Shown: positions 3,261 to 26,061, counted from the stretch's first letter. The stretch: 32,000 nucleotides of DNA from Fidelibacterota bacterium (GCA_021157965.1 JAGGVO010000041.1:224119-256118), one strand, 5' to 3'. Made by a program: numbers and translations. Notes: generated by a model not told the origin, from the letters alone.

Positions 3261-3765
3261 TTTTTTTATCTAACTTTTCAAGAATTTCCCGAACGATGTC
3301 ACGGATGCTTCTTCCGTCGGTTTGAATATAATAATTCGCTTGTTTATAAACAAAAGTTCGTTTGTCCAGAATTTGCTGAATGTGAGCCGGCTGGAGAGGT
3401 TGAGGTAACAGAGGCCTGTTTTCACTCATTTTTACACGCTCCAGGATAGTTTGGGGTTCCGCCTGCAGCCAGATGACCACTCCCGTGGACTTCATCCATT
3501 CCCGGTTTCTTTCGTCCAGAGGAAATCCACCGCCGGTGGCAATGACCATATCAGAGGTATTGGGAAGAGGATCATGTTTTATGTCTCTTTCCAGTTTCCG
3601 GAAAGCCTCTTCACCTTCTGTCCGGAATATTTCCGGAATGCTCTTCCCTGTCTTTTTTTCCAGATAATGGTCCAGATCCAAAAAGGTGCATTTGAGTGAT
3701 TTTGCCAGAGCCTGGCCCACTTCGGTCTTGCCGGTTCCCATCATACCTGTCAGGAAGATGATCAT
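3253..3765 (-). CDS. aroK: shikimate kinase
   Basis: Walker A motif GMMGTGKTEVG at the N-terminus. 170 aa. ATGA stop/start overlap with aroC. Confidence 0.9.
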   Translation of the reverse strand: MIIFLTGMMGTGKTEVGQALAKSLKCTFLDLDHYLEKKTGKSIPEIFRTEGEEAFRKLERDIKHDPLPNTSDMVIATGGGFPLDERNREWMKSTGVVIWLQAEPQTILERVKMSENRPLLPQPLQPAHIQQILDKRTFVYKQANYYIQTDGRSIRDIVREILEKLDKKNA

Positions 3766-5722: not shown

Positions 5723-5725
5723 AAT

Positions 5726-8315: not shown

Positions 8316-9334
8316 TTTTTCAGCAATCCCCGCCCGATCACCTGACTGATGATATGGAGCTCTTTCATAAGATGGTTGAATTGTTTGGGGTAGAGGGATT
8401 GAGGCCCGTCAGAGAGAGCATTGATGGGATCGTCATGAACTTCCACCATGATGCCGTCCGCTCCGGCGGCTACGGCAGCCCGGGCCATGGGAACCACAAG
8501 CTCCCGGTTTCCCATGGCATGGCTTGGATCCACAATGATGGGTAAATGGGACAATTTTTTCACTACGGGGACTGAAGAGAGGTCCAGGGTAAAACGGGTG
8601 GAATTTTCAAATGTCCGGATCCCGCGTTCACATAAAATCACCTTTGAATTTCCGCCGTTCACAATATATTCGGCGGCATTCAGCCACTCTTCCACTGTGG
8701 CGGAGATGCCCCGTTTGAGGATCACCGGCTTGTCTACAGTCCCCAGGGCTTTGAGAAGGCTGTAATTCTGCATATTCCGGGCACCGACCTGAAGGGCATC
8801 CACATATTTGCAAAACAGGTCGATATCCGATATGGCCATCACTTCGGAAACACAGGGGATCCCCGATGCAAAGGCCGCATCCTGCAGGTATTTCAGTCCC
8901 TCTTCTCCCAGTCCCTGAAAGGTATAGGGGGATGACCGGGGTTTGTATGCACCGCCCCGGAGTACATGAGCACCGTAACGTTTGATTTCCCGGGAGAGCT
9001 TGTGAACCATCTTTTCATTTTCCACGGAGCAGGGACCGGCGATGACGGCGATTTCTTTGCCCCCGAAGGGGACTTTCCCCACATGGACAATGGTGTTTGA
9101 CGGCTTAAATGTCCGGGAACACTGTTTATAACTTTCTGATATCCGGATGACTTTGTTAACACCGTCAAACCCTTTGATTTTTTCGATGTCAACCCGGGAA
9201 ATATCTCCGATAATCCCAAGGATCATGTGATCTTCACCCCGGGATTTATGTATTTTCAGATCTAGTTTGTGCAGGTGCTCGGAAATCTGTTCGATTTGGG
9301 CGTCCTTTGCGCCCTGATTCATTACAATAATCAT
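8312..9334 (-). CDS. aroF: 3-deoxy-7-phosphoheptulonate (DAHP) synthase, type I-beta with N-terminal ferredoxin-like regulatory domain
   Basis: Architecture and many blocks match Thermotoga-type DAHPS: MIIVM..GIIGD N-terminal domain, IAGPCSVE, LRGGAYKPRSSPYTFQGLGEEGL, GARNMQN, ILCERGIRTF, VDPSH. Confidence 0.9.
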   Translation of the reverse strand: MIIVMNQGAKDAQIEQISEHLHKLDLKIHKSRGEDHMILGIIGDISRVDIEKIKGFDGVNKVIRISESYKQCSRTFKPSNTIVHVGKVPFGGKEIAVIAGPCSVENEKMVHKLSREIKRYGAHVLRGGAYKPRSSPYTFQGLGEEGLKYLQDAAFASGIPCVSEVMAISDIDLFCKYVDALQVGARNMQNYSLLKALGTVDKPVILKRGISATVEEWLNAAEYIVNGGNSKVILCERGIRTFENSTRFTLDLSSVPVVKKLSHLPIIVDPSHAMGNRELVVPMARAAVAAGADGIMVEVHDDPINALSDGPQSLYPKQFNHLMKELHIISQVIGRGLLKK

Positions 9335-9636
9335 GATGAATGCTCCTTGTTCTCATTCGTATCTCTGGCACCCTCTTGTCCGGCCTTACGTCCAAGGGCA
9401 ATGATCTGCGTGAACAAGGCTTTCAGGTCCGCTGGTTTTAAAAAGCGGGATTGAACGCCCTCCAGGGAGTGATAAATTTCCTCTTCACGTCCCGGAACCG
9501 TCACAGGTTGTCCTGTTTTCCCCTTCTCCCTCCCGATCTGGTAGGCCAGTTCCATCCTTTTGGTTAAAAGTTCGACCAAAGATTTGTCGATACTGTCAAT
9601 TTGGCTCCGGAGAGATTGTATGATTGTTTCATCCAT
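9331..9636 (-). CDS. chorismate mutase (AroQ class)
   Basis: 101 aa helical protein. LRSQIDSIDKSLVELLTKRMELAYQIGREK and the later PGREEEI are typical of CM type 2. ATGA overlap with the DAHPS gene. Confidence 0.85.
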   Translation of the reverse strand: MDETIIQSLRSQIDSIDKSLVELLTKRMELAYQIGREKGKTGQPVTVPGREEEIYHSLEGVQSRFLKPADLKALFTQIIALGRKAGQEGARDTNENKEHSS

Positions 9637-10243: not shown

Positions 10244-11374
10244 ATGAATTCAGTGACGGTAATTCAGTCTCTGCAAACACTGAAAACCGAAGGGAATCCC
10301 GTAACAACGGTTTATCTTGACGTGTCTACATCCCAAAAGCTCCGAAATGCAGTTGTTGTTGTCAACAACATGTTTAAACAGAAAAAAGAGAAGACTTTTT
10401 ATAAAAACCTTTCAGAAAAGGAAAAAGTGTCTGTGCGGAAAGATGTGGAGGGTATTATCAAATTCCTTAATAACCAGCTGGGAGAAGATCGACAGTCGTT
10501 AATGATCGTATCGTCCAATCGGGCTTATGTGTGGCAGGTGATTCATCTGGGATTTCCGGTTGAAAATATGATGATGATTCAGGACCGCCCCTATCTGCGC
10601 CCTTTTCTGGAAGGCATCAGCCATGAACGGAATTATGCCATTGTCATGGTGGATCAGGGAAAGGCTAAAATTCTGATGAATCATCTCGGGAACAAGGAAG
10701 AAATGTTCAATGTGGTGAATCTGCTTCCTGAAGATGCCAATGAAGGCGGTTTTGGCGGTATGGATGAACGGAAGAATGAACGCCATCGTGAAGAGGTTGT
10801 GGCCAAGCATTATAAAAATGTGGCGGCTCAACTGGAAACACTGGATCGGAAATACCATTTTGACTGGATAATTTTGGGCGGACTCCGTGAGAGTATCTCC
10901 GATTTTGCCAACTATCTTAAAACCAATCTGAAGGATAAAATCAGCCGTGAAATCCATGTGGATCCCAATCTTCCCATGGATAAAGTTTTTCAGCTTGTGG
11001 ATAAGGAGATCCCGGGATGCCGTATGGATTTTGAGAAAGACATCCTGAATATGTTTGCCAATGAATTCCACAAGAACTACAAAGGTGTTGCCGGAATACA
11101 CCAGACGGAAGAAGCTCTTCAAAAGGGACAGGTGGACATGCTGATGATTCAGAATGGTTTTCAGACCAAAGGACGGGTGTGTAAATGGTGTTTGCACATG
11201 ACAACAGGGGAAGAAGACGAATGCCCCGGTTGCGGTCATCCCATGGTCCGAACCCTGGATATTACTGATGAGCTGATTCACCAGGCTTTGGATACCGGAG
11301 CGAAAATTGAATTTATCTCCTCGGATATGGGAGAATTTTCGCCCTTGTGCGGACTTCTTCGATATAAACCGTAA
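10244..11374 (+). CDS. bacterial eRF1/Pelota-like protein (baeRF-type) with C-terminal zinc ribbon, GGQ-less
   Basis: Central and C-terminal domain pattern of eRF1/Pelota: YAIVMVDQGKAKIL, WIILGG, GVAGIHQTEEALQKGQVDMLMI. Four-Cys insert CKWC..CPGC. Strong AAGGAGG Shine-Dalgarno site. Confidence 0.55.
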   Translation: MNSVTVIQSLQTLKTEGNPVTTVYLDVSTSQKLRNAVVVVNNMFKQKKEKTFYKNLSEKEKVSVRKDVEGIIKFLNNQLGEDRQSLMIVSSNRAYVWQVIHLGFPVENMMMIQDRPYLRPFLEGISHERNYAIVMVDQGKAKILMNHLGNKEEMFNVVNLLPEDANEGGFGGMDERKNERHREEVVAKHYKNVAAQLETLDRKYHFDWIILGGLRESISDFANYLKTNLKDKISREIHVDPNLPMDKVFQLVDKEIPGCRMDFEKDILNMFANEFHKNYKGVAGIHQTEEALQKGQVDMLMIQNGFQTKGRVCKWCLHMTTGEEDECPGCGHPMVRTLDITDELIHQALDTGAKIEFISSDMGEFSPLCGLLRYKP

Positions 11375-11460: not shown

Positions 11461-11489
11461 TTGACTTTCATGTGTTTTGAATTTATATT
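11461..11489 (+). promoter_or_regulatory. candidate sigma70-type promoter of the rotor-stator operon
   Basis: TTGACT (11461-11466), a 17-nt spacer, then TATATT (11484-11489), set in an AT-rich 187-bp intergenic region about 70 nt upstream of the ATG at 11562. Confidence 0.4.
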
Positions 11490-11561
11490 TTTTTAAGTAT
11501 GTATATATGTTGAAAGTTGTTATTCAACAACCGTAAATTCAAAATAAAAAAGGAAAACAGG

Positions 11562-12488
11562 ATGTCCCTCAATCGATGGCTTCGTTTGGGAACCGTTTTG
11601 GTGTTGTTGTCAGGTTGTGCCTGGTTCAGGGGGGGCGAGAGTCCCGAAGGGGACGAAGGACTTGCCGTTGATTCAACGGAAATAGCTTTACAGAATGATT
11701 TAATTCAACAGGAAATGAATGAGATCACGACTTCCGGTACCCGGGATAGTGTTATTCAGGAGCGGGATTATTCCTTTGTTTTGAATGAGCTCTCCTATGA
11801 ATTGAAAAAACAGGGTGCCCGGATCAAACACCTGGAATCTGAGCTGAAAGACCTGAAGGCAAAATCCACCCTCTGGGAGAATCCCCTGAAGATTTATAAT
11901 AAAGAAATCATTCTTCAGAACGGGACCAGCATGTTTGGCAAGATCATGTACCAGGATAGTGATATTTTAAAAGTTCAAACGCTCATCGGGTACTTTGTCC
12001 TTTCCCGTGATGAGGTAGTGCGTATTGTGGATAATATTCCCGCATCTGCTGTTGAAAGCCGCGAAGTTGCGGCGGATCAGGCTTCCGGACAGCCGGTATC
12101 GGTACCGACAGCGGAAACGATTTCTCCTGTTGAATTACCGGAAAGACCCTCACCATCGGCGGTGGATGCAAATTGTATTTTGGTGGGGAACATCCGTGAA
12201 AGCACGGATCCCTCGGGGAATCGCATTTTTTCTGGAGAGGTGAAGAATATAGGTGCCCGTCGGGCTGATTTTGTAAAGATCACATTTGTCTTTCGCATGA
12301 ACTGGAGCGGTGAGACGAAAACCCTGACGACCTTTGTCAAGGGATCCTTTATGAATTATGCCAGTGGTGTTAGCTCTGATGCGGCCTTACTGCCCGGTGC
12401 CACCGGAAGGTTCACATTGAATATTCCGGCATCTTTTGGTACATTTATCGGTTATTCATATAGCATTAACTGGGAGGAATATGATTAA
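11562..12488 (+). CDS. lipoprotein with coiled-coil segment and C-terminal beta-sandwich-like domain
   Basis: Start at the ATG at 11562 (AAGGAAAA upstream). Signal peptide plus lipobox LVLLSGC. Heptad-rich LSYELKKQGARIKHLESELKDLKAK. The C-terminal part has alternating beta-strand patterns (FSGEVKNIGARRADFVKITFVF). No enzymatic motif. Confidence 0.6.
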   Translation: MSLNRWLRLGTVLVLLSGCAWFRGGESPEGDEGLAVDSTEIALQNDLIQQEMNEITTSGTRDSVIQERDYSFVLNELSYELKKQGARIKHLESELKDLKAKSTLWENPLKIYNKEIILQNGTSMFGKIMYQDSDILKVQTLIGYFVLSRDEVVRIVDNIPASAVESREVAADQASGQPVSVPTAETISPVELPERPSPSAVDANCILVGNIRESTDPSGNRIFSGEVKNIGARRADFVKITFVFRMNWSGETKTLTTFVKGSFMNYASGVSSDAALLPGATGRFTLNIPASFGTFIGYSYSINWEEYD

Positions 12489-13422
12489 GCGATTCTCGGC
12501 GTTACCGCATGTGATGATTCCGCTGCTTTTCTCTGTCCTTTTTCTTGCAGCCTGCGGAGGATCCCGTCCGGAAGTTCCTCCGGAGAAACTACAGCGGACC
12601 GAAGATGACCTGCGGAGGCGCGAACAGGAAGTCCAGCAAAAAACCATCGAGATTCTTGATCTGAAAAACCAGATCATTATACTCCAAAGTGAAATCAGTG
12701 AACTGAAATCCAATATTATCGAACTGGAAAGCCATCGTGATTCCCTTCGCTCCAGGCTGATGAATGAAAAAATGTCTGCCGAAGAGCTGGAGGGGATGTT
12801 ATCGGAACTGGACGAAAAAAACCTGGAACTGAAACGACAAAACGAGCTGCTTCAATCGTACCTGAATGCATCGCAGGATTCTATCCTGAAGGCGCTGGAA
12901 ACGGCTGCCGTGAAAGAATCCGAACAAAATCTTTTAAAAACAATCTCCCGGAATGAACCGGTAAAAACCGATACGGCAGTGGGAAAAATCGTTGCCGACA
13001 CAAGCGCTTTGAATGCAGCTATAAGTCCTGTCATGGATCTGACCCAGGATGAATACCTGCAGCGGTATCAGGATGCTCTGGACCTCCTGTTCGACAAACA
13101 ACGCAATAAGGCCATCGAGGAATTCAGGGAATTGATCCGAATTGCCCCGGATAACGATTATTCAGACAATTGCCAATACTGGATTGGTGAAGGGTATTAT
13201 GCACAGGGGCTCTACAGTCGTGCCATTGAGGAATTTGAAAAAGTCAAAACGCTGCCGAACGGCAATAAAGCTGATCATGCCCAATTTAAAATCGGTCTGT
13301 CTTACCTGAAACTGGGACAGAAAGTAGAAGGTCTGGAAGCCTTTAAAAAACTTCTGGAGGAATATCCGAACAGTGAATTGGTCGGCAAGGTCCGGGATAT
13401 GATTAATTCAGGACAGTTCTGA
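12481..13422 (+). CDS. YbgF/CpoB-like coiled-coil + TPR lipoprotein
   Basis: Start at 12481 (GGGAGGA Shine-Dalgarno site, ATGATTAA overlap with the previous stop). Lipobox LFLAACGG. Long coiled coil. C-terminal block NCQYWIGEGYYAQGLYSRAIEEFEKV..KADHAQFKIGLSYLKLGQ..EEYPNSE matches the YbgF/CpoB TPR domain. Confidence 0.7.
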   Translation: MIKRFSALPHVMIPLLFSVLFLAACGGSRPEVPPEKLQRTEDDLRRREQEVQQKTIEILDLKNQIIILQSEISELKSNIIELESHRDSLRSRLMNEKMSAEELEGMLSELDEKNLELKRQNELLQSYLNASQDSILKALETAAVKESEQNLLKTISRNEPVKTDTAVGKIVADTSALNAAISPVMDLTQDEYLQRYQDALDLLFDKQRNKAIEEFRELIRIAPDNDYSDNCQYWIGEGYYAQGLYSRAIEEFEKVKTLPNGNKADHAQFKIGLSYLKLGQKVEGLEAFKKLLEEYPNSELVGKVRDMINSGQF

Positions 13423-13423
13423 T

Positions 13424-14080
13424 ATGAAATTTTTGTGTTTCGTCTGTTCTTTGACATGTTTTGCCACTTTGGGTTTTTCTCAGGACCCTATGCTGGATAT
13501 GGATATGCTTTTTCCTGAACGGTCCGTCAGACAGGATTCTGCCCTGATAAACCTGCAATCTTCAGGAACGGATATGGGAGGGGCCGTCTCTCTGGCGGAA
13601 TTGCAAAAACGTATAGAACGCCTGGAAGAAGAAGTCCGATTGCTTAAAAAAGCCCTGGAAGAACGGCAACAGGTTACAGAAAAAAAGCCTGATGATCCGG
13701 GATTTCCTCTCATTGAGCAGCAACTGTATGCCCGGGCTCTCCGCTATTTTACAGCCGGGGATTATGGAAAGGCATCCGAATTGCTTCGGCAGGTGAGAGA
13801 AAACACACAAGAGAAAGAACTGAACCTCAGCGCCCTCTACTGGCTGGGGGAATGTGCCTTTCGGCAAAACAACTACAATGAAGCCGTGGTGCTTCTCCAG
13901 GAACTGCTTTCCGAAGAGAGTAAAATATTCCGGGAAAATGCCCTGATCCTTGTTGCCATCAGTTTCAGAAATCTCGGAAAACAGGCCGAATCCGAACGCT
14001 ATTTTCAGGCATATCTGGAAGCATACCCCGATTCAAAATATTCGGCCCTCGCCCGGAGAGAATTGAAAAAAAATCAGTGA
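13424..14080 (+). CDS. secreted YbgF/CpoB-like coiled-coil + TPR protein (second copy)
   Basis: Signal peptide MKFLCFVCSLTCFATLGFSQ. Short coiled coil (LQKRIERLEEEVRLLKKALEE). TPR block ALYWLGECAFRQNNYNEAVVLLQELL..AYPDSKYSALA. Starts 1 nt after the previous stop. Confidence 0.65.
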   Translation: MKFLCFVCSLTCFATLGFSQDPMLDMDMLFPERSVRQDSALINLQSSGTDMGGAVSLAELQKRIERLEEEVRLLKKALEERQQVTEKKPDDPGFPLIEQQLYARALRYFTAGDYGKASELLRQVRENTQEKELNLSALYWLGECAFRQNNYNEAVVLLQELLSEESKIFRENALILVAISFRNLGKQAESERYFQAYLEAYPDSKYSALARRELKKNQ

Positions 14081-14097
14081 TAAAAGTGATAAAAAAC

Positions 14098-15438
14098 ATG
14101 AAACAATTAAAATGGCTGTTCCTTCTGTTATGCGTGGTACTGTACGGCCATACGGCCCACGCATCCTCTCAGGTTTCCTTTATGAAACCGGGGCCCATGA
14201 TGCGGGTGCCGTCAAGTTCTGTGGAAGACTCACCCTATCTTTTCCGGACCGGTTTCGGTTCCGATCTGTACGGAATCGAAGATTTTCGCATGTCCAAAGG
14301 GGTCTTTTTCGATATGGACATTATCAATTCACTGAATGTGGGATTCTCCGTGATCCAGCCCTATGATGTTACCGCCATGAATACATCCGATGTGGAATAC
14401 GGCTTTCACCTGACGAAACGGGTTATGGCCTATGGGGATATTTCCATGGCTGTGGGACTTTGGGATTTTGTCCTGAGGAATATCGATGACGAAATGCAGG
14501 TGGATAATCAGAACTTTTCCTTTTTTGCTGTGATTTCTACTGAAAAGATGATGGGAGAAACGGGTTTTAATACATATATGGGTGTGGGTAGCGGTGGACT
14601 TTCCCGGGGTTTTTCAAGTAATGATACTACCACAAGTATAGGGGTTTTTGCCGGTTTCCTGTTCAGGACCGGTATGATGGCAGATCGGGGAGGGATTAAC
14701 CTGATTGGTGAATTTGACGGAGGGGGATTGAATCTGGGGATGGAAATCCCCCTGACGACAGAATACAGGTTGAATCTGGGTATCTCCCAATTACAGTGGC
14801 TGCCGAATTTTGGGAAGGAAAATGAGACCGATCTGCCGGCCATATCCATGGGCCTCACCCTGGCCATCCCCCGAAGTTTGCCGGGACGGGCATCACGGCG
14901 CAGCGGTATAGCGGTTGGTACGGGTGAGAATACAGGAACATCGGCGACAGAATCGGAATACCGTGCCAAACTGGATTCCATCCTGAGAGAAGCAGATGCC
15001 ACCATTATGGGCCTCCGGGATTCCCTGAGGATATCTGTCCAGACGGTGGACGACCTGAACAATACCATCGCCCTTCTCCGTCAGCAGAAATCCGTCCTGG
15101 AAGATTCTCTCCAATCGGTGAAACTTCAGCAGCATGTGATGCAGCAAAATATCAATCTGGCCCTGAAGCATTTGAGCCGGAGTCTCCGGTATTTTTATGC
15201 CGGCGATTATATTCAGGCGCTGAATGAGGTGGATATTGCCATCCAGCTCAATCCCAATCTTTCTCTTGCCTACGCACGCCGGGGGTCGATTTATTACAAA
15301 ATGGGAGATATTCAAAGGGCGGCGATCAACTGGAATCTGGCCCTGCAGATCGACCCCGAATATGATGATGTCCGCAATATTCTGAAGGTCCTCCAGGAAA
15401 CCCGCTCTCGTACAGGGTCCTTCATGAACAATAACTAA
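14098..15438 (+). CDS. secreted beta-barrel-like domain + coiled coil + TPR fusion protein
   Basis: The ATG at 14098 gives the signal peptide MKQLKWLFLLLCVVLYGHTAHASS. A GTG at 14077 overlapping the previous TGA is the alternative start. The first ~250 aa are Gly/aromatic-rich alternating strands (YGFHLTKRVMAYGDISMAVGLWDF, GINLIGEFDGGGLNLGMEI, YRLNLGISQLQW). A coiled coil follows, then TPRs (YFYAGDYIQALNEVDIAIQLNPN, AYARRGSIYYKMGD). Confidence 0.6.
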   Translation: MKQLKWLFLLLCVVLYGHTAHASSQVSFMKPGPMMRVPSSSVEDSPYLFRTGFGSDLYGIEDFRMSKGVFFDMDIINSLNVGFSVIQPYDVTAMNTSDVEYGFHLTKRVMAYGDISMAVGLWDFVLRNIDDEMQVDNQNFSFFAVISTEKMMGETGFNTYMGVGSGGLSRGFSSNDTTTSIGVFAGFLFRTGMMADRGGINLIGEFDGGGLNLGMEIPLTTEYRLNLGISQLQWLPNFGKENETDLPAISMGLTLAIPRSLPGRASRRSGIAVGTGENTGTSATESEYRAKLDSILREADATIMGLRDSLRISVQTVDDLNNTIALLRQQKSVLEDSLQSVKLQQHVMQQNINLALKHLSRSLRYFYAGDYIQALNEVDIAIQLNPNLSLAYARRGSIYYKMGDIQRAAINWNLALQIDPEYDDVRNILKVLQETRSRTGSFMNNN

Positions 15439-15447
15439 GGAGTCTGA

Positions 15448-16242
15448 ATGGATTTTGCAACCATCTTAGGGATTTTTATGGGCCTGGGACTGATCTTTTT
15501 TGGAATTACACTCCTTACACAGGATTATCAGATGTTTTGGTCCCTGCCCTCCCTTGCCATTGTTTTGGGAGGATCCCTTGCCGCCACACTGATTGCCTTT
15601 CCCCTTCACGAAGTCGGCCGCGTTTTTAAGGTGATTGGCATTGTCTTCAGAAAAGAACGGCGGGATATGCAAACGCTGGTCCGCCAGGTTACGGAACTGG
15701 CGGCTTTTGCCCGGCGGGGTCCAACAGAACTTGAGAAGCACATTGAAGAGGTGAAACATCCCTTTTTGAAGGATGGTATTCAGCTTGTGATTGACGGCTA
15801 TAGTGATGCTGATATCCGGGAAATCCTCACGTTGCGGATTGTAAACCGTGAACAGCGTGAAAAAGGGGAAGTGAATGTTGTAAAAACCATGGGAAAACTA
15901 TCCCCTGCTTTTGGTATGATCGGAACCCTTATCGGATTGGTTGTGATGCTATATGGCATGAGTGTAAGCGATGCGTCGGGCGATATGGCGGCTCAGCTTG
16001 GAAGAGGGATGGGTGCGGCCATTGTGACAACCTTCTACGGGGCTATTCTGGCGAATCTCTTTTTCAATCCAGCTGCCGCGAAAATCGATTCCCGTATTCA
16101 GAAAGCTTCCATGCTTCAACTGATGCTCATCGAAGGTGTTTGTCTTCTCTATCACCGGAAACATCCCCTCATTGTCCGGGAAAAGCTGAATTCCTTTCTC
16201 CCCCCCCGGGACTGGATCCGTGAAGAAGAACGAAAAGGCTGA
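15448..16242 (+). CDS. motA: flagellar-type stator protein MotA/PomA
   Basis: MDFATILGIFMGLGLIFFGI N-terminus. Four TM segments. Cytoplasmic loop ARRGPTELEKHIEEVKHPFLKDGIQLVIDGYSD aligns with the PomA/MotA loop. Conserved channel prolines SPAFGMIGTLIGLV and FFNPAAAKI. AAGGAG Shine-Dalgarno site. Confidence 0.88.
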   Translation: MDFATILGIFMGLGLIFFGITLLTQDYQMFWSLPSLAIVLGGSLAATLIAFPLHEVGRVFKVIGIVFRKERRDMQTLVRQVTELAAFARRGPTELEKHIEEVKHPFLKDGIQLVIDGYSDADIREILTLRIVNREQREKGEVNVVKTMGKLSPAFGMIGTLIGLVVMLYGMSVSDASGDMAAQLGRGMGAAIVTTFYGAILANLFFNPAAAKIDSRIQKASMLQLMLIEGVCLLYHRKHPLIVREKLNSFLPPRDWIREEERKG

Positions 16243-16901
16243 TGGAAAAAACAAAGAAAAAAATACCCCTTCCCCCTGAAGAGACGGATTCGGAAGAGTG
16301 GCTTGTTACCTATTCGGATATCATGACACTGCTCATGACTTTTTTCGTATTGCTTTTTTCCATGTCCACCATCGACCCTGTGAAAATTGAACAGTTTGGT
16401 GAGGCGATGGGAAAGGAACTGGGAGTCAAGACCTCTGAAAGAACCGGCCGGGTCTCCCTTGCCCAGATTGACCGGGACGTGAAGGAGATTGTCAACGAAG
16501 AAAACTTAAACGAATATGTGGAAGTCACCCATTCCTACAGAGGGGTGACTATCTCGATTGTGGCTGATATCCTGTTTACCCGGGGAAGTGCCGAGCTGAA
16601 TCCCCGGGTCTATTCGATTCTTAACAAATTTATTCCGAAGATTCAAAATTCCATCTATCAGATTGCTGTGGAGGGACATACAGACAGTGATCCCATCCAT
16701 TCGGATAAATATCCGTCAAACTGGGAATTGTCTGCTGCCAGAGCCTCGCAGGTTGTCAATTATTATATTTCACAAGGCATTGATCCGGAACGTTTCAGGG
16801 CCATTGGTTTTGCTCATACCCGGCCTAAAAAACCAAATACAAGTCCGGAAAACAAGAGCCAGAACCGCCGGGTTGAAATAACATTCCTGGCAATATCTTA
16901 A
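16242..16901 (+). CDS. motB: stator protein MotB with OmpA-like peptidoglycan-binding domain
   Basis: WLVTYSDIMTLLMTFFVLLF plug/TM segment with the channel Asp (D26, nt 16317-16319). C-terminal OmpA-like block VEGHTDSDPI..NWELSAARASQV..NRRVEI. TGATG overlap with motA. Confidence 0.88.
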   Translation: MEKTKKKIPLPPEETDSEEWLVTYSDIMTLLMTFFVLLFSMSTIDPVKIEQFGEAMGKELGVKTSERTGRVSLAQIDRDVKEIVNEENLNEYVEVTHSYRGVTISIVADILFTRGSAELNPRVYSILNKFIPKIQNSIYQIAVEGHTDSDPIHSDKYPSNWELSAARASQVVNYYISQGIDPERFRAIGFAHTRPKKPNTSPENKSQNRRVEITFLAIS

Positions 16902-16916
16902 TAAAGGAGAGCTACA

Positions 16917-18470
16917 ATGAATTGTCGGAATCGCATGTGTTTAACTCTGGCAATAATTCTGTTAACATCAGCTATGCTGAGTGGTGAATCCCCGAATTAT
17001 CTGTCCCAGAAACTCGCACTCGAACAGGCACTCCAGAATAAAATTTCACAGGCTGTAGAACGCATTCTCGGGAATAATCATTTTATTGTTGATGTGAAAG
17101 CAGATTTGGATTTTGTTCCCGATCAGCGCGTTGAGGAAGTGTATGAACCGGCGGTACCGGGACGTGCACTTGTACAACCGGCTCCTGAAGCCGAAAGTTC
17201 CCGGGAAAGGGACAGGGCCTACGAAGAAGAATACAATGAAATTCTCCCCGGCATACCTGCGCGGATTGGCGACCGCGGATTGGATATCCTGACAGAAGAG
17301 CTTCCGTCAGATACTTCCCGTATCCGCGAGGAGCAAACAGCCGTTCTGCCGGGAGTTGAGAATATTGAACCGGAGAGGCTCAAAAGCCGTTCGGTTGCCC
17401 GTTCTGTTCCCCTGATTCCGAAAGTCAGGAAACTGGACATCAGCATCATTTTAAAGGAAGGCATCGAGCCGGATCTGGTGGAATCCATTCGTCAGGTGGC
17501 AATGATTGCCTCCCATTTCGACCGCTCCCGGGGAGATATGCTGAGTATTATGACAACGACTTTCAGGGATGACAAGCTGATGGCCGGTGCGGAAACCGGA
17601 GTAATACCGGGAGATGTTGAGTATCAGCCATCCCGCGAAGAACAGGAACGGACCGATGAAACTCAGGAACTGATTCGCCAAATCCAGGATCAGATTGAAC
17701 GGCTTTCACAACAGCAGCAGAGGCAGGCGCCCCGGAGCAATGAACCCACACCAACGGAAAACATGCTGCTTAAAATCATTGATAAGCTCAATACCCGTCA
17801 GTCCCTTGCCGATGATCTGGAAACACAGAAGATGATTACGGAGCAGAAGCTCCGGCTTGAAATGCTGGGACGCGATACTACCCGATTGCAGGAACTCCGG
17901 GATGAAATAGCAGCCCTGAAACTTCAGCTGGCAACCCGGGAAATGGCTGTTGAAGACCGGGAAAGTACACGGGCTGCATCAGACAGTATGCTTCGGGAAA
18001 AAGAAGAACTGGAAGAGGCCATTGCGGAAAAAATCGCCCTCCTCTCGGAGACGCAAAAAGAGCTTATGGACATGCAAAAGGCTCAAATCCCCTGGTGGTT
18101 CTGGGGGCTTCTGGCTGCTTTGCTTGCTGTTGTCATTGTGCTGGTTGTACTGATTCTGAACCGCGGCAGAGTGCGCCGTCAGGAGGAAGAAGCTCCGAAA
18201 CCGGAACCGGCAGCCAGCGAGGATGCCCTCCGTGAAAAGATTCTCAGGGAATTGCGGGAAAGCAAGAAAGAGAGCAAACTTGAGCGGGAACCGGATCAGG
18301 GATCCGATATGGCTGAAAAGCGGGCGGAGCTGGAAGGAATCCGGAAAAATATCGTCAATATGAGTGTAGCCAACCCCGATACTGCCAGCAAGATTATCCG
18401 GGATTGGATGGAAGAAGATGAAACGCCCGCAGACCAGGCGGAAGAAAAAGGAGAACGGAAAAATGAGTGA
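16917..18470 (+). CDS. FliF-like ring protein: RBM3-like domain + long coiled coil + TM helix + FliG-binding-like tail (RBM1/RBM2 absent)
   Basis: N-terminal hydrophobic segment. LEQALQNKISQAVERILGNNHFIVDVKADLDF resembles the start of FliF RBM3 (LEQRVEQILSPIVGNGNVHAQVTAQLDF). KLDISIILKEG..IRQVAMIASHFDRSRGDMLSIMTTTF resembles its end (LSVAVVVN..GFSDKRGDTLNVVNSPF). About 165 aa of coiled coil follow, then TM IPWWFWGLLAALLAVVIVLVVLIL. The tail ASKIIRDWMEEDE resembles the C-terminal IRQWM FliG-binding helix of FliF as I recall it. Confidence 0.65.
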   Translation: MNCRNRMCLTLAIILLTSAMLSGESPNYLSQKLALEQALQNKISQAVERILGNNHFIVDVKADLDFVPDQRVEEVYEPAVPGRALVQPAPEAESSRERDRAYEEEYNEILPGIPARIGDRGLDILTEELPSDTSRIREEQTAVLPGVENIEPERLKSRSVARSVPLIPKVRKLDISIILKEGIEPDLVESIRQVAMIASHFDRSRGDMLSIMTTTFRDDKLMAGAETGVIPGDVEYQPSREEQERTDETQELIRQIQDQIERLSQQQQRQAPRSNEPTPTENMLLKIIDKLNTRQSLADDLETQKMITEQKLRLEMLGRDTTRLQELRDEIAALKLQLATREMAVEDRESTRAASDSMLREKEELEEAIAEKIALLSETQKELMDMQKAQIPWWFWGLLAALLAVVIVLVVLILNRGRVRRQEEEAPKPEPAASEDALREKILRELRESKKESKLEREPDQGSDMAEKRAELEGIRKNIVNMSVANPDTASKIIRDWMEEDETPADQAEEKGERKNE

Positions 18471-19398
18471 TCCTCAAAAACTTTCCAATCTGGACAGGGC
18501 CGCAATCATTTATAAAATATTGGGGGACAATTTATCCGTCTCCCTTTTCAGGCACCTTTCCCAGGCGCAGTTGACTAAATTGCGGCGCCATGCCGAAACG
18601 CTGACTAAAGTGCCTTTCGATCTGAAAAGAAAGGTTCTGGAAGAGTATTATTTTCAGCTTATGTCTGAAAAAATCCGGTCCGTCAGCGACGGGGACCAGA
18701 AAGTGCTTTTTGATTTCTTAAAACCTATGTCTTCTGATCAAATCAAATACCTGCTGGAGCCGGAAAGCGAACTGGTAAAAGCCCTTGTCCTGAGCCAGCT
18801 GAGCATTGAAGTACAGGTGGATGTCATAAAAAACATGGAAGAAGATGAACGGGCACGGGTTTTAATACAGATGAATGATATCGATAAAATCCCTTATGAA
18901 GGGATTATCAATATTGAGAACGATATTCGCGAAAAATCCCGGCTGGTTCCCCATAAAGCCCATTTTAACAAAGGAGGATCCAAACAGATTGCTGATATCC
19001 TGAGTAAGCTGGAGCCGGATTTTGAAGAACAGTTTGTAAGTCATGTACAAAATGAAGACCCGGAACTGGCCCGTGATCTGGCGAAATATTACATACCTTT
19101 TGACAGTTTCGACAAACTTCCGGTGGATGTGGTCAGGGAGGCGCTGAAAAGCGTGGAACTGAATGATCTGGCCCTGGCCCTGAAGGGAATGAGCGAAGAA
19201 TTTGTCACCTATATTCTGGGAAATCTGCCACAGAAAACCCAGATAATGCTGGAAGATGAAATAAAGGATGTGGAAGGTCCCCAGCCCCGGCGGAAAGTTG
19301 AAAGTGCACGGCGCAAACTGACCCAGGCCGTGAAACAACTTGCTGCCGAGGGTAAATTTGATATTGAGGATTTCCTCGATACGGATATGGTGGAATAA
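18463..19398 (+). CDS. fliG: FliG-like rotor/switch protein
   Basis: Start at the ATG at 18463 (AAAGGAGAA Shine-Dalgarno site, ATGAGTGA overlap with the upstream stop). Collinear with FliG throughout: LDRAAIIYKILG, LLEPESELVKALVLSQL (EHPQ region), NKGGSKQIADILSKLEP (Gly-Gly linker), EDPELA, LNDLALALKGMSEE, torque helix LPQKTQIMLEDEI, GPQPRRKVESARRKLTQAVKQLAAEGKFDI. Confidence 0.85.
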   Translation: MSDPQKLSNLDRAAIIYKILGDNLSVSLFRHLSQAQLTKLRRHAETLTKVPFDLKRKVLEEYYFQLMSEKIRSVSDGDQKVLFDFLKPMSSDQIKYLLEPESELVKALVLSQLSIEVQVDVIKNMEEDERARVLIQMNDIDKIPYEGIINIENDIREKSRLVPHKAHFNKGGSKQIADILSKLEPDFEEQFVSHVQNEDPELARDLAKYYIPFDSFDKLPVDVVREALKSVELNDLALALKGMSEEFVTYILGNLPQKTQIMLEDEIKDVEGPQPRRKVESARRKLTQAVKQLAAEGKFDIEDFLDTDMVE

Positions 19399-19429
19399 AA
19401 GCCGGAGATCTGATAAAAAGATATCTTAT

Positions 19430-19462
19430 GCCGGACGGGGTGTTTCCTGTCCGGCATTTTTT
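19430..19462 (+). terminator. rho-independent terminator ending the rotor-stator operon
   Basis: GC-rich hairpin GCCGGACGGGG / CCTGTCCGGC with a 5-nt loop, followed by A and a T6 run. Begins 32 nt after the fliG-like stop. Confidence 0.7.
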
Positions 19463-21329: not shown

Positions 21330-22298
21330 ATGATTCACTGGCTAAAAGTTTTTTTTTCCAAATCGCTGAATACGGCCTATGACTGCGTAGATGCCATCGG
21401 TCGGGGGGAAACGGGTGTGCACCTGACGGAAACTCTGACAGAATCCATCCGGAGGAGCATGGTATCCGCCCACCTTTTAGGTGTAGCCACCGGTCATGAG
21501 AATTTTTTCCGGGAAATTGGGATTTTGCAGAGGATTCTGAATATTTGTCAGGTATATATCCTCCATCAGGGCCGGATCCTCTATTTTGAAGCGTCTGCCT
21601 ATCAGAACCGAAAGGGAGCCCTCCGGGGTGCTCTTTATGTGGAAACACTTCAACGGAAGGATTTTGAAAGCCGGCGAAAAAAACTCCCCTTCCAACTGGA
21701 AAAAAGTTTCCATCCCGAACGGAAAGCAGAATTTTTACACAAGATCGAGCGGCTTCCGGAAAGCATCACAAATCCGGATAAATTGCACAAAGTTACCCTG
21801 GACTACCTGATCCCCCTTGTGTTGATCAAAACGGTGGATTTTGGCAAACTGACCATGAAACTACCCGGCGAACTGCTCCCGGATTTTGAAGGACTTCATG
21901 CCTTTTTGCTGGCGATGGGACAGGGAGATGTTTTCTGGAAAAAAGATGTGGAAATTATTCACAAAATCATCAAAGGAATCCGGACGGTTCTTTACCTCGA
22001 TGAAAATTTCAGTACCGTGAAAAAAGTTTTGCTGGAAGAGCGCGAAAAAACCATTCAGCTGCTGAAAGGGAATATATTCGACCAGTATAAAATGCTGAAC
22101 AAATGGGATGAGGTATTGCGCATGCTGGCAACCCGGAATGATAAAGGATTGATTAAATTTCTCACCCAGCTTGTTCGGGACCGGAAGGAAGCCGTTGATG
22201 AGCTGCGTAGTTTGCAGAAAACCTGTGAAGAGAAGGAGCTTTGGAAGAATTATTATAAAAAAATTGAAAACTTGTTCGTAACATCCGATGCAGTTTGA
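21330..22298 (+). CDS. hypothetical cytoplasmic protein
   Basis: 322-aa ORF with no TM or signal sequence, mostly helical and charged. No motif recognised. Same-strand packing: 12 nt after sixA and 18 nt before the next gene. Confidence 0.5.
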   Translation: MIHWLKVFFSKSLNTAYDCVDAIGRGETGVHLTETLTESIRRSMVSAHLLGVATGHENFFREIGILQRILNICQVYILHQGRILYFEASAYQNRKGALRGALYVETLQRKDFESRRKKLPFQLEKSFHPERKAEFLHKIERLPESITNPDKLHKVTLDYLIPLVLIKTVDFGKLTMKLPGELLPDFEGLHAFLLAMGQGDVFWKKDVEIIHKIIKGIRTVLYLDENFSTVKKVLLEEREKTIQLLKGNIFDQYKMLNKWDEVLRMLATRNDKGLIKFLTQLVRDRKEAVDELRSLQKTCEEKELWKNYYKKIENLFVTSDAV

Positions 22299-22316: not shown

Positions 22317-23072
22317 ATGAAGTATTGCGTAAAAATATCCCTCCTGTTTTTGCTTTTGGTCGGCTCACTGGCGGCACAGTTCGTCCCGGCACCGGTTCAG
22401 TTAATTAATACCCCGACTGTCGCAACCCTGGCACGGGGATCTTACCTGACTGATTTACGTTTTACCACCAATGGCGGGGTGCTGATCGGGGCAACAGTAG
22501 GTCTGACAGATCGTTTTTCCATGGGTATATCCTATGGAGGATCCAACATTATCGGCAATGAAAATATCACCTGGAATCCCCAGCCCGGTGTGAGTGTCAA
22601 ATATCGACTTATTGATGAAGGAATGAAAAAACCGGGTGTCTCTATGGGATTTTCCTCTCAGGGCTATGGGGCTTATACCGACGGGAATTATGAAATTCCT
22701 TCCTCCGGCTTTTATTCTGTCCTCAGCAAAAACTGGCATTTTATCGGCAATACAAGCCTTCATGCAGGGGCTAATTATTCCCTGGAACAGCCAGACAGCA
22801 CCTATATCCCCTCTTTCTTTGCCGGGGCTGCCATTGAACTAAATCCTCAATTCTCTATTATGATCGAATATGATGCCGCCCTGAATTATGAAAAATTTTC
22901 AGATTTAAAAAAATTCAAAATTTCCGGCGGGTACGGTTTTCTGAATGCCGGTGTCCGCGTTGGCATTACGGAAAATCTCTACCTGGAAGTGGATCTGAAC
23001 AATCTTATCTGGGGCGAAAATGTGGAATCCTTTAACCGTGAAATTAAATTGATGTATTTTGATATCTTCTGA
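22317..23072 (+). CDS. outer-membrane beta-barrel protein (possibly YjbH-like)
   Basis: Signal peptide MKYCVKISLLFLLLVGSLAAQ. Alternating amphipathic strands. C-terminal aromatic residue (..KLMYFDIF). The N-terminal INTPTVATLARGSY resembles the start of YjbH-type barrels, from memory only. Confidence 0.6.
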   Translation: MKYCVKISLLFLLLVGSLAAQFVPAPVQLINTPTVATLARGSYLTDLRFTTNGGVLIGATVGLTDRFSMGISYGGSNIIGNENITWNPQPGVSVKYRLIDEGMKKPGVSMGFSSQGYGAYTDGNYEIPSSGFYSVLSKNWHFIGNTSLHAGANYSLEQPDSTYIPSFFAGAAIELNPQFSIMIEYDAALNYEKFSDLKKFKISGGYGFLNAGVRVGITENLYLEVDLNNLIWGENVESFNREIKLMYFDIF

Positions 23073-23073
23073 C

Positions 23074-26022: not shown

Positions 26023-26061
26023 AATAAAAGGTATTTTACTTGAAAAATAGCAGGATTAGTC

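What the first reader, a model, noticed from the sequence alone, without database searches (positions are those of the whole stretch)
11461..19462. Eight-gene operon joins a flagellar-type stator (MotA/MotB) to a minimal FliF/FliG rotor and four secreted TPR, coiled-coil or beta-barrel proteins, with no other flagellar genes in 32 kb
Seen in sequence:
- Eight same-strand genes: 11562-12488, 12481-13422, 13424-14080, 14098 (or 14077)-15438, 15448-16242, 16242-16901, 16917-18470 and 18463-19398.
- They are separated by 17 nt or less (taking the ATG start at 14098), or joined by overlapping stop/start codons: ATGATTAA at 12481, TGATG at 16240 and ATGAGTGA at 18463.
- They are bracketed by TTGACT-17-TATATT (11461-11489) and a GC hairpin with a T6 run (19430-19462).
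- The products are a lipoprotein, two YbgF/CpoB-like TPR proteins, a barrel-coiled-coil-TPR fusion, MotA, MotB, a FliF-like protein and a FliG-like protein.

Established knowledge:
- Canonical fliF-fliG is followed by fliH-fliI-fliJ.
- Flagellar loci also carry fliM/N, flhA/B, fliPQR and rod, hook or ring genes. None is present here. The next genes are a ferritin-like protein, plsC and sixA.
- TPR proteins PflA/PflB scaffold stators in Campylobacterota. CpoB/YbgF works with the related Tol-Pal motor.

Inference: this could be a self-contained, ion-driven rotor-stator machine that acts on the envelope rather than a filament-bearing flagellum. I do not know of a described system with this composition, but I cannot search the literature here.
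Basis: partly seen in the sequence, partly recalled or inferred. Interest (0 to 1): 0.9.

Follow-up and report, generated by a model that had tools for sequence, protein, structure and literature searches.

The report
Flagellar-type motor without a flagellum
An eight-gene operon conserved throughout the abundant ocean and subsurface phylum Marinimicrobia (SAR406/Fidelibacterota) combines a flagellar stator (MotA/MotB) with a FliG-like protein, a stripped-down FliF-like ring protein and four periplasmic or outer-membrane proteins, apparently in bacteria with no flagellum; this would be the first use of the flagellar rotor for something other than swimming.

Summary
Eight tightly packed same-strand genes (11562-19398) end in a strong terminator and encode:
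- a lipoprotein;
- two CpoB/YbgF-like coiled-coil-TPR proteins;
- a 12-strand outer-membrane-barrel / long-helix / TPR fusion;
- a PomA-like MotA and a MotB with plug, Asp and OmpA domain;
- a FliF-like protein and a three-domain FliG-like protein.

The FliF-like protein has only a signal peptide, the RBM3/collar ring domain, a fixed-length helical spacer, one TM helix and the FliG-binding tail. It lacks the RBM1/RBM2 domains that house the export gate.

The cassette is collinear in 42 species-level genomes, all or nearly all of this one phylum, down to 31% FliG identity. All eight genes are under strong purifying selection (dN/dS 0.02-0.15). The charged residues of the MotA-FliG interface and the MotB Asp are conserved. 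The FliM-binding motif of FliG has decayed.

In a published table, 9 of 14 Marinisomatota MAGs have fliG and none has fliM or fliN. The only cultured member of the phylum is non-motile. I found no prior description.

It is most likely a self-contained, flagellum-derived, ion-driven envelope machine. Rotation and function are inferred. One correction: a second MotA/MotB-type set lies at 26062-28272.

The parts
11461..11489 (+). sigma-70-like TTGACT-17-TATATT upstream of g1 (possible promoter, unproven)
   Evidence: 10/12 match, but the number of such matches in the region equals the shuffle expectation. It lies in a 187-nt AT-rich intergenic region.
11562..12488 (+). g1: lipoprotein (308 aa), coiled-coil segment plus C-terminal domain of unknown fold
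   Evidence: Lipobox LLSG|C, conserved as L-x-[GAS]-C in most of the 30 orthologues aligned. No Pfam or PDB relative. dN/dS 0.07-0.10. First gene of the cassette in all loci.
12481..13422 (+). g2: exported (lipobox LAAC|G) coiled-coil + CpoB/YbgF-like TPR protein (313 aa)
   Evidence: TIGR02795 ybgF 7.8e-20, below cutoff. Best natural PDB matches are YbgF 2xev at 4.6e-10 and CpoB 6g5s at 9.7e-10, over residues 196-306. Signal peptide or lipobox present in orthologues.
13424..14080 (+). g3: secreted coiled-coil + CpoB/YbgF-like TPR protein (218 aa)
   Evidence: TIGR02795 5.3e-15, below cutoff. YbgF 2xev 6.5e-5. Signal peptide present. Least conserved member of the cassette (dN/dS 0.13-0.15).
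14098..15438 (+). g4: signal peptide + ~12-strand outer-membrane beta-barrel-like domain + 84-residue helix + TPR (446 aa; 453 aa if the GTG at 14077 is used)
   Evidence: AF2 model with pLDDT 74: strands 47-258, helix 285-368, TPR 371-445. Foldseek hits FapF, NanC, OMPLA and a designed 12-strand barrel, E down to 9e-6, plus TPR arrays. 31-57% identity across the phylum. More than 100 full-length homologues, and every one that carries a taxon name is Marinimicrobia.
15448..16242 (+). g5: MotA/PomA-type stator A subunit (264 aa)
   Evidence: PF01618 7.9e-25. MotP/PomA/MotA NCBIfam models 1e-45 to 1e-53, below equivalog cutoffs. 31% identity to a PomA sequence recalled from memory, E 3e-40. R89, E96, P153, P208, T160, T194 and T195 invariant in 34/34.
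16242..16901 (+). g6: MotB-type stator B subunit with plug, channel Asp and OmpA-like peptidoglycan-binding domain (219 aa)
   Evidence: MotB_plug 5.3e-19 and OmpA 1.2e-19. D26 aligns with E. coli D32 and is invariant in 35/35.
16917..18470 (+). g7: truncated FliF-like ring protein (517 aa): signal peptide, RBM3/collar-like domain (~26-216), helical spacer (~240-387), TM helix (394-417), cytoplasmic FliG-binding-type tail (~463-500)
   Evidence: PF08345 4.5e-7. Family profile against Salmonella FliF 6scn residues 240-440 gives 1.2e-4, with the tail aligned to the FliF C-terminus. AF2 topology. Foldseek top 12 are all FliF S-ring. Exhaustive search: 55 clusters at E<=1e-10, then canonical-size FliFs matching only at RBM3. 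W497 is 25/25, and spacer length is fixed.
18463..19398 (+). g8: FliG-like rotor protein (311 aa) with N, M and C domains
   Evidence: FliG_N 4.3e-13, FliG_M 2e-9, FliG_C 8.4e-23. Profile against 1lkv 1e-38 and 3hjl 2.6e-32. Torque-helix charges conserved and EHPQR motif decayed. dN/dS 0.02-0.03.
19428..19462 (+). intrinsic terminator (13-bp stem, 8 GC pairs, loop 4, T6 tail)

Best explanation
The operon encodes a self-contained envelope-spanning machine, derived from the flagellar motor and driven by ion flow, that has no filament and no type III export apparatus.

Proposed mechanism:
- PomAB-type stator units (g5/g6) anchor to peptidoglycan through the MotB OmpA domain and conduct ions past the conserved Asp.
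- Their MotA cytoplasmic loops (R89/E96) push on the charged torque helix of the FliG-like protein (g8).
- FliG-like is held, through its N-domain, on the C-terminal tail of the FliF-like protein (g7).
- g7 forms an RBM3-type ring in the periplasm, joined to its single TM helix by a fixed-length helical spacer of 131 or 178 residues.
- The ring is thus driven, most likely rotated, and transmits mechanical work across the periplasm to an outer-membrane assembly. That assembly consists of the barrel-helix-TPR protein (g4), two CpoB-like coiled-coil-TPR proteins (g2, g3) and a lipoprotein (g1).

Shown here: homology, domain content, residue conservation, synteny and purifying selection.
Inferred: ring formation, rotation, contacts with g1-g4, and the output. 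My best guess for the output is an outer-membrane or cell-surface task, such as envelope tethering or constriction, or moving or exporting surface material. It is not swimming.
For: - **Domains.** FliG homology is strong and full-length. FliF homology is restricted to RBM3/collar plus the tail.
- **Interface residues conserved phylum-wide.** MotB Asp is 35/35. MotA R89, E96, both prolines and three Thr are 34/34. The FliG position aligned to R281 is Arg in 32 and Lys in 10 sequences. The acidic pair is conserved in 35/42, and R276 is conserved. The FliF tail Trp is 25/25.
- **Synteny.** The cassette is collinear in every one of ~30 loci with enough upstream DNA, among 42 species-representative loci. 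Flanks differ, and FliG identity goes down to 31%.
- **Selection.** dN/dS is 0.02-0.15 for all eight genes, as low as or lower than the housekeeping neighbours.
- **Signs that the flagellar partners are gone.** RBM1, RBM2 and TM1 of FliF are absent. The FliM-binding EHPQR motif has decayed, with R replaced by E in 39/44. 0 of 14 Marinisomatota MAGs have fliM or fliNY, while 9 have fliG. The cultured Fidelibacter multiformis is non-motile.
- **Exported partners.** g1-g4 all carry export signals. g4 has an outer-membrane barrel fold with a 12-nm helix.
Against: - No direct genome-wide scan for flhA/B, fliPQR, fliI, rod, hook or flagellin genes was possible. The absence rests on three marker genes in 14 incomplete pelagic MAGs and on the phenotype of one isolate. 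I could not confirm that this isolate carries the cassette.
- The FliF-like model has low confidence (pLDDT 62), and the fold-search E-values are weak (0.007-0.7).
- No multimer modelling was possible, so ring formation, FliF-tail/FliG-N binding and any contact with g1-g4 are untested.
- One paper states that Marinimicrobia MAGs carry 'flagellar assembly' genes, although this cassette alone would produce that call.
- The function is unknown.
Confidence: 0.62

Rival explanations
1. A non-rotating scaffold. The FliF-like/FliG-like ring is a static docking platform that recruits and un-plugs MotAB units. The work is delivered through the stator or the TPR proteins to the outer membrane, in the manner of Tol-Pal with CpoB. 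The system would then be a Tol-Pal-like envelope-integrity or division device that merely borrowed flagellar parts.
For: g2 and g3 have the CpoB architecture (coiled coil + YbgF-type TPR). MotB keeps its plug and PG-binding domain. Nothing here shows rotation.
Against: The residues that are conserved are exactly those of the torque-generating MotA-FliG interface, and the FliG Gly-Gly hinge is also kept. A passive dock would not need these. MotA matches TolQ/ExbB models only at E~0.02. g2 and g3 are below the YbgF model cutoff.
Confidence: 0.2
2. An ordinary but divergent flagellar locus. These are the MS-ring, FliG and stator genes of a normal flagellum whose remaining ~30 genes lie elsewhere in the genome.
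For: All four core proteins are flagellar homologues. A published study lists 'flagellar assembly' genes in Marinimicrobia MAGs. Genome-wide absence was not directly tested here.
Against: - The FliF-like protein lacks TM1, RBM1 and RBM2, which surround the export gate.
- The FliM-binding motif of FliG has decayed.
- 0 of 14 MAGs have fliM or fliNY, against 9 with fliG. Mean completeness of those nine is ~79%. Flagellated phyla in the same table score 1/1/1.
- The cultured relative is non-motile.
- No fliH/I/J follows fliG in any of 42 loci.
- The operon partners are unique to this phylum.
Confidence: 0.07
3. An evolutionary relic. These are leftover genes from a lost ancestral flagellum that no longer do anything.
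For: The lineage appears to lack the rest of the flagellum. The core proteins are very divergent from canonical ones (19-25% identity for FliG).
Against: dN/dS is 0.02-0.15 for all eight genes. Gene order is intact across a whole phylum. Functional residues are invariant. Accessory genes are dedicated and co-conserved. The helical spacer has a fixed length.
Confidence: 0.03
4. A Zorya-like anti-phage system or other MotAB-based defence module.
For: MotB matches ZorB models at 3e-24, which reflects generic MotB homology.
Against: No ZorA, ZorC, ZorD or other defence-model hit for any of the other seven proteins. The cassette is vertically conserved phylum-wide in a fixed chromosomal context (upstream baeRF gene) rather than patchy like defence islands. 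MotA has the short PomA-type architecture.
Confidence: 0.02

Closest known systems
Bacterial flagellar motor core (FliF MS-ring, FliG, MotAB/PomAB stator)
   Same: The four core proteins are homologous. The MotB plug, Asp and OmpA domain are present. The MotA Arg/Glu loop, prolines and PomA-like Thr residues are present. FliG has three domains with a Gly-Gly hinge and a charged torque helix. The FliF RBM3/collar, C-terminal TM helix and FliG-binding tail are present.
   Different: There is no FliM/FliN, no fT3SS gate or ATPase, and no rod, hook, rings or filament in the locus, and apparently none in the lineage. FliF lacks TM1, RBM1 and RBM2, and has a 131-178-residue helical spacer between the ring and the membrane. 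The FliG EHPQR motif has decayed. The partners are an outer-membrane barrel-TPR protein, CpoB-like proteins and a lipoprotein.
Tol-Pal system with CpoB/YbgF
   Same: An ion-driven 5:2-type motor is encoded next to periplasmic coiled-coil + YbgF-type TPR proteins and a PG-binding OmpA-like domain. A plausible envelope or outer-membrane role is shared.
   Different: The stator is of the flagellar (PomA/MotP) type, not TolQR (E~0.02). No TolA, TolB or Pal is present. A FliG/FliF rotor is present, which Tol-Pal lacks. g2 and g3 score below the YbgF equivalog cutoff.
Myxococcus Agl-Glt / Agl-Nfs surface motors
   Same: A MotAB/TolQR-family motor is coupled to a trans-envelope set of TPR lipoproteins and outer-membrane beta-barrel proteins, to move material at the cell surface without a flagellum (concept in PMC3858216, listed).
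   Different: No sequence relationship beyond generic TPR (GltE model E 0.03). Agl-Glt has no FliG or FliF. The stator subfamily is different.
Type IX secretion / gliding motor GldLM-PorLM (FCB superphylum)
   Same: It is found in the same superphylum. An inner-membrane ion-driven motor drives a long periplasmic shaft that reaches an outer-membrane-associated ring. This is analogous to the long helical spacer of the FliF-like protein and the 12-nm helix of g4.
   Different: No GldL, GldM, PorK or PorN homology was detected in any of the eight proteins. The coupling here would be through FliG in the cytoplasm.
SctJ / SpoIIIAG-type RBM ring proteins
   Same: Sec-exported ring-building-motif protein anchored by a C-terminal TM helix. 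This is the SctJ-like topology, from established knowledge.
   Different: The RBM here is of the FliF RBM3/collar type. The protein carries a FliG-binding cytoplasmic tail and a long coiled-coil spacer. No secretion or sporulation partners are present.

Membership tests
Bacterial flagellum (complete organelle) | FliM/FliN switch complex (C-ring) partnering FliG | tested here: not met
   No FliM or FliN gene in the window or in ~40 related loci. 0 of 14 Marinisomatota MAGs have fliM or fliNY in PMC10359470 supplementary file 4. The FliM-binding EHPQR motif of FliG has decayed.
Bacterial flagellum (complete organelle) | Flagellar type III export apparatus (FlhA, FlhB, FliPQR, FliHIJ) | not testable with these tools
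   None is present in the 32-kb window or within +/-10 kb of the cassette in the related loci. Whole genomes could not be scanned. The FliF-like protein lacks the RBM1/RBM2 domains that house the gate.
Bacterial flagellum (complete organelle) | Rod, hook, filament genes and motility phenotype | not testable with these tools
   None is present in the window. The cultured phylum member F. multiformis IA91 is described as non-motile (PMC11652737), but I could not verify that IA91 carries the cassette.
FliG (flagellar rotor/switch protein) | FliG_N, FliG_M and FliG_C domains above Pfam gathering scores | tested here: met
   Scores are 50.2, 38.0 and 81.2 bits against cutoffs of 25, 25 and 23.3. 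The profile hits FliG structures at up to 1e-38.
FliG (flagellar rotor/switch protein) | NCBIfam/TIGRFAM equivalog score (TIGR00207) | tested here: not met
   96.9 bits against a cutoff of 226.7. Identity to canonical FliG is 19-25%.
FliG (flagellar rotor/switch protein) | Charged torque-helix residues facing MotA (E. coli R281, D288, D289, R297) | tested here: met
   K/R258, D265, E266 and R276 are aligned and conserved across 42-44 family members. The T. maritima alignment agrees.
FliF (MS-ring protein) | Full architecture TM1-RBM1-RBM2-RBM3/collar-TM2-tail; TIGR00206 equivalog score | tested here: not met
   26.8 bits against a cutoff of 129.75, matching only model positions 240-289. There is no YscJ_FliF (RBM1/2) Pfam hit. 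The N-terminus is a cleavable-type signal peptide.
FliF (MS-ring protein) | RBM3/collar domain and C-terminal FliG-binding tail | tested here: met
   PF08345 scores 30.9 bits against a cutoff of 23.8. The profile against 6scn residues 240-440 gives 1.2e-4, with the tail aligned to ...DPRVVALVIRQWMSND. The Foldseek top 12 are FliF S-ring structures. Tail Trp is invariant.
MotA/MotB flagellar-type stator (PomAB/MotPS-like) | MotA_ExbB domain, MotB plug + channel Asp + OmpA domain, MotA rotor-facing Arg/Glu and channel prolines | tested here: met
   The best NCBIfam models are MotP, PomA, MotA and MotD/MotS (1e-45 to 1e-53), although below their equivalog cutoffs.
Tol-Pal / CpoB | TolQ-TolR-TolA-TolB-Pal gene set; CpoB equivalog score | tested here: not met
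   TolQ models hit only at E 0.017-0.019. g2 and g3 score 71.7 and 56.1 bits against a cutoff of 90.1 for TIGR02795. There is no TolA, TolB or Pal.
Zorya anti-phage system | ZorA with long cytoplasmic tail plus ZorC/D or ZorE effectors | tested here: not met
   Only MotB matches ZorB. There is no ZorA, ZorC, ZorD or ZorE hit.
T9SS/gliding motor GldLM-PorLM | GldL/PorL and GldM/PorM homologues | tested here: not met
   No such Pfam or NCBIfam hit for any of the eight proteins at E<=0.1.

The most novel reading that the evidence does not exclude
This is a previously undescribed kind of trans-envelope rotary machine, and the first case of the FliG/FliF rotor and a flagellar-type stator working without a type III export apparatus, rod or filament. 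It is conserved across the whole SAR406/Marinimicrobia phylum. It uses a ring held on a fixed-length coiled-coil 'drive shaft' to do mechanical work on an outer-membrane barrel/TPR complex. It would show that the rotor-stator module of the flagellar motor is a separable unit. It is either exapted after flagellar loss or resembles a pre-flagellar stage.
Probability: 0.5. Interest if true: 0.92.

Novelty: new variant of a known kind. Interest (0 to 1): 0.82.

Why it matters
- **A separable rotor.** FliG and FliF are known only from flagella. A conserved, selected FliG/FliF/MotAB module without export apparatus, rod or filament would show that the torque-generating core can exist and be useful on its own. 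This makes the long-standing question of the modular origin of the flagellar motor directly testable.
- **An abundant, unexplained machine.** The carriers (SAR406 / Marinimicrobia / Fidelibacterota) are among the most abundant bacteria of the dark ocean and subsurface. A phylum-wide envelope machine of unknown function is therefore a real gap in understanding their cell biology. The phylum now has a cultured member on which cryo-ET and genetics could be tried.
- **A practical annotation problem.** This cassette makes KEGG-style or marker-gene pipelines report 'flagellar assembly' or fliG in organisms that probably cannot swim. That biases trait-based ecology.

Tried and rejected
- **Promoter.** The TTGACT-17-TATATT site is real, but such matches are at chance frequency, so I do not count it as evidence.
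- **RNA elements.** An Rfam scan of the whole window found nothing, so there is no known riboswitch in the leader.
- **Defence systems.** The PADLOC scan gave only generic ZorB-MotB homology, so I rejected the Zorya reading.
- **Structure jobs.** The AFDB50 fold library was unavailable.
- **Inaccessible paper.** The primary IA91 paper (Nat Microbiol 2024) is not held. I could not see its cryo-EM data or check for the cassette in AP035449.
- **Literature with nothing relevant.** Searches on Marinimicrobia with flagell*/fliG/motA/T9SS, and on FliG-like or FliF-like non-flagellar systems, gave no description of this system. The MotAB-evolution paper (PMC12505986) does not cover the phylum.
- **Second stator set.** I considered whether the set at 26-28 kb belongs to the cassette. 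It is linked only in the closest relatives, so I list it separately.
- **g1.** No family or solved-structure relative was found.

Full report
**1. Observation**

The eight ORFs are present exactly as described: 11562-12488, 12481-13422, 13424-14080, 14098 (or GTG 14077)-15438, 15448-16242, 16242-16901, 16917-18470 and 18463-19398, all on the + strand.

- Junctions are -8, 1, 17, 9, -1, 15 and -8 nt. The quoted overlap strings ATGATTAA, TGATG and ATGAGTGA are exact, and most starts have an AGGA/GGAG-type ribosome-binding site.
- A 13-bp hairpin (8 GC pairs) with a T6 tail at 19428-19462 is the best terminator-like site in the region.
- The TTGACT-17-TATATT site exists, but promoter-like matches occur at chance frequency: 13 found against 11.6 +/- 3.6.
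- No Rfam family matches anywhere in the window.

**2. What the proteins are**

Pfam and NCBIfam confirm the following.

- **g5** is MotA_ExbB (7.9e-25). Its best full-length models are MotP, PomA and MotA (1e-45 to 1e-53), while TolQ/ExbB models reach only E~0.02.
- **g6** is MotB_plug (5.3e-19) plus OmpA (1.2e-19).
- **g8** has FliG_N, FliG_M and FliG_C, all above gathering scores.
- **g7** matches YscJ_FliF_C (4.5e-7, above gathering) and a fragment of TIGR fliF.
- **g2 and g3** have YbgF/CpoB-type TPR domains, below the equivalog cutoff. Their best natural PDB matches are YbgF 2xev and CpoB 6g5s (4.6e-10 and 9.7e-10 for g2; 6.5e-5 for g3). Both have an N-terminal coiled coil, as CpoB does.
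- **g4** has a C-terminal TPR. Its AF2 model (pLDDT 74) shows about 13 strands (47-258), one 84-residue helix (285-368) and the TPR. Foldseek matches 12-strand outer-membrane barrels (FapF, NanC, OMPLA and a designed 12-strand barrel; E down to 9e-6) and TPR arrays.
- **g1** is a lipoprotein (LLSG|C) with no detectable relatives.
- g1-g4 and g7 all carry export signals that are conserved in orthologues.

**3. The FliF-like protein is a stripped FliF**

A family profile hits Salmonella FliF (6scn) only over residues 240-440, which is the RBM3/beta-collar region, at E 1.2e-4. A second, weak domain aligns the C-terminal tail (...IVNLSVANPDAASKILRDWLEE) with the FliG-binding end of FliF (...IREMSDNDPRVVALVIRQWMSND).

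The AF2 model (pLDDT 62) gives this order:
- signal peptide;
- alpha-beta-beta, a disordered insert, then beta-beta-alpha;
- helices 240-269 and 279-387;
- TM helix 394-421;
- tail helices.

The top 12 Foldseek PDB hits are all FliF S-ring/RBM3 structures. They are weak (E 0.007-0.7, TM ~0.4) but unanimous.

An exhaustive profile search of 1.84 billion representatives finds a small discrete family: 33 clusters at 1e-30 and 55 at 1e-10. Below about 1e-7 come proteins of canonical FliF size that match only at their residues ~230-430.

There is no RBM1/RBM2 (YscJ_FliF) match, and TM1 is replaced by a signal peptide with A-x-[GAS]|Q-type sites. From established knowledge of MS-ring structures, RBM1/RBM2 surround the export gate, so their absence fits a machine with no gate.

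The helical segment between the ring domain and the TM helix has a strikingly fixed length. It is 130-132 residues in 19 of 25 sequences that are only ~25% identical, 120-129 in two others, and 175-178 in the window's clade. This suggests a spacer of defined reach.

**4. The stator-rotor interface is intact, and the switch interface is not**

- MotB D26 aligns with D32.
- FliG-like K258, D265/E266 and R276 align with R281, D288/D289 and R297.
- MotA1 is 31% identical to PomA.

Across 34-44 family members recovered from related loci:
- MotB Asp is 35/35.
- MotA R89, E96, P153, P208, T160, T194 and T195 are 34/34.
- The FliG position aligned to R281 is Arg in 32 and Lys in 10 sequences.
- The acidic pair is conserved in 35/42.
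- The Gly-Gly hinge is 43-44/44.
- The FliF-tail Trp is 25/25.

By contrast, the FliM-binding EHPQR motif keeps only the Glu and usually the Pro. His becomes Thr/Ser, Gln becomes Arg/Val/Leu/Lys, and Arg becomes Glu in 39/44.

**5. Distribution and selection**

- FliG-like homologues form a tight clade of 43-97% identity. All named members are Marinimicrobia. There is then a gap to canonical FliGs at 19-25%. The FliF-like and g4 families show the same restriction.
- A scan of one genome per species found 42 loci, essentially all Marinimicrobia / Neomarinimicrobiota / Fidelibacterota. One contig is binned as Bathyarchaeota, which is probably contamination. FliG identity goes down to 31%.
- In every locus with enough upstream DNA, the eight genes are present in the same order. 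Downstream neighbours change, and only a baeRF-family gene stays upstream.
- Pairwise dN/dS against three relatives is 0.02-0.15 for all eight genes. FliG-like is lowest at 0.02-0.03. The neighbouring plsC and baeRF genes give 0.07-0.14.
- The identical FliG-like protein is found on 10 independent environmental contigs with the same context. g4 is 100% identical to a protein of a Guaymas Basin MAG.

**6. Is there a flagellum elsewhere?**

I could not scan whole genomes. The indirect evidence is consistent.

- A published table of 962 ODZ MAGs (PMC10359470, supplementary file 4) lists HMM calls for fliG, fliM and fliNY. Of the 14 Marinisomatota rows I read, 9 have fliG=1 with fliM=0 and fliNY=0. 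Their completeness is 57-93%.
- The other 5 have none of the three. These are mostly less complete MAGs of the same genera.
- None has fliM, fliNY or che genes.
- Latescibacterota, Krumholzibacteriota and Nitrospinota rows in the same table score 1/1/1.
- The only cultured member of the phylum, Fidelibacter multiformis IA91 (GTDB class AB16, genus 46-47, 45.6% G+C), is described as non-motile and was examined by cryo-EM (PMC11652737).
- The window's nearest species representative is 'Marinimicrobia bacterium 46_43' (97% FliG identity). That is probably the same lineage, but I could not verify that IA91 carries the cassette.
- A statement that Marinimicrobia MAGs carry 'flagellar assembly' genes is what this cassette alone would produce.

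**7. Mechanism (inferred)**

- PomAB-type stators anchored to peptidoglycan conduct ions past MotB Asp. The all-Thr channel positions resemble Na+-type PomA, which is speculative.
- MotA loops act on the FliG-like torque helix.
- FliG-like sits on the FliF-like tail.
- The FliF-like RBM3 ring is carried on a fixed-length helical spacer into the periplasm.
- There it can meet the 12-nm helix and TPR of the outer-membrane barrel protein g4, the CpoB-like g2 and g3, and lipoprotein g1.
- The output is probably mechanical work at the outer membrane or cell surface, not swimming.

A static-scaffold, Tol-Pal-like variant is the main rival. An ordinary flagellar locus, a relic and a Zorya-like defence system are disfavoured.

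**8. Comparison and novelty**

The system works like the flagellar motor core. It fails membership of 'flagellum' on FliM/FliN and on full-length FliF, and it scores below the equivalog cutoffs for FliG, FliF and MotA/B. It is not Tol-Pal, Agl-Glt, GldLM or Zorya by sequence.

Ten full-text searches and seven papers gave no description of such a system. I rate it a new variant of a known kind: a flagellar-type rotor-stator. There is a substantial chance that it is a categorically new envelope machine.

**9. Also seen**

A second flagellar-type stator cluster lies at 24856-28272:
- an unknown 388-aa protein;
- MotA2, 31% identical to MotA1;
- an OmpA-domain MotB-like protein with Ser in place of the channel Asp;
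- MotB2, with plug and Asp.

It is linked to the cassette only in the closest relatives. It could supply alternative stators for the same rotor. This is untested.

Noticed in passing
window 24856-28272 (+): A second flagellar-type stator operon that the finding does not mention. It comprises a 388-aa protein with no family hit; MotA2 (26062-26880, PomA/MotP-like at 1e-48 to 1e-50, 31% identical to MotA1); an OmpA-domain MotB-like protein lacking the channel Asp (26873-27571, 'IIYASLLT'); and MotB2 with plug and Asp (27568-28272). The start and stop codons overlap. It lies downstream of the cassette in L004 (L003 ends at x388), and not within 10 kb in the ~35 other loci.
   Followed up: partly
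window 23059-24726 (+): A GAF + HD/HD_5 (HD-GYP-like) protein sits between the cassette and the second stator set. It may be a cyclic-nucleotide or c-di-GMP phosphodiesterase and could be regulatory. It is conserved in L003 and L004.
   Followed up: no
window 10244-11374 (+); e.g. L001 1313-2467: A bacterial archaeo-eukaryotic release-factor-like gene (baeRF_family10 + eRF1 domain 3) sits immediately upstream of the cassette in the window and in most related loci (29-50% identity in distant relatives, 74-90% in the closest). This holds even where all other flanking genes differ.
   Followed up: partly
window 17634-18098 (g7 residues ~240-394) and orthologues in L001-L039: The helical spacer of the FliF-like protein has a near-fixed length despite low sequence identity. 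It is 130-132 residues in 19 of 25 sequences, 120-129 in two (L001, L019), and 175-178 in the window's clade (window, L003-L006). It looks like a molecular ruler with two settings.
   Followed up: partly
literature: bioRxiv 10.1101/2020.06.03.132969; PMC10359470 supplementary file 4: Metagenomic studies report 'flagellar assembly' genes or fliG in Marinimicrobia MAGs. This cassette (fliF/fliG/motA/motB homologues) is the likely cause, so trait pipelines may mis-score these organisms as potentially motile.
   Followed up: partly
L043 (JAUVYS010000166.1, 3117 bp): A contig carrying MotA, MotB, FliF-like and FliG-like genes of this family is binned in a 'Candidatus Bathyarchaeota archaeon' MAG. 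This is almost certainly a binning contaminant.
   Followed up: no
window 21330-22298 and 22317-23072 (+): Two adjacent proteins (322 and 251 aa) have no Pfam or NCBIfam hit. One or both are conserved downstream of the cassette in the closer relatives (L003 and L004 at 82-94%; h322 at 48% in L005; h251 at 62% in L006).
   Followed up: no
window 2151-9636 (- strand): An aromatic amino-acid (shikimate) biosynthesis gene cluster. It contains DHQ synthase, chorismate synthase, EPSP synthase, a fused prephenate dehydrogenase/dehydratase, and by my reading of the translations a DAHP synthase and a chorismate mutase. It is ordinary housekeeping context.
   Followed up: partly
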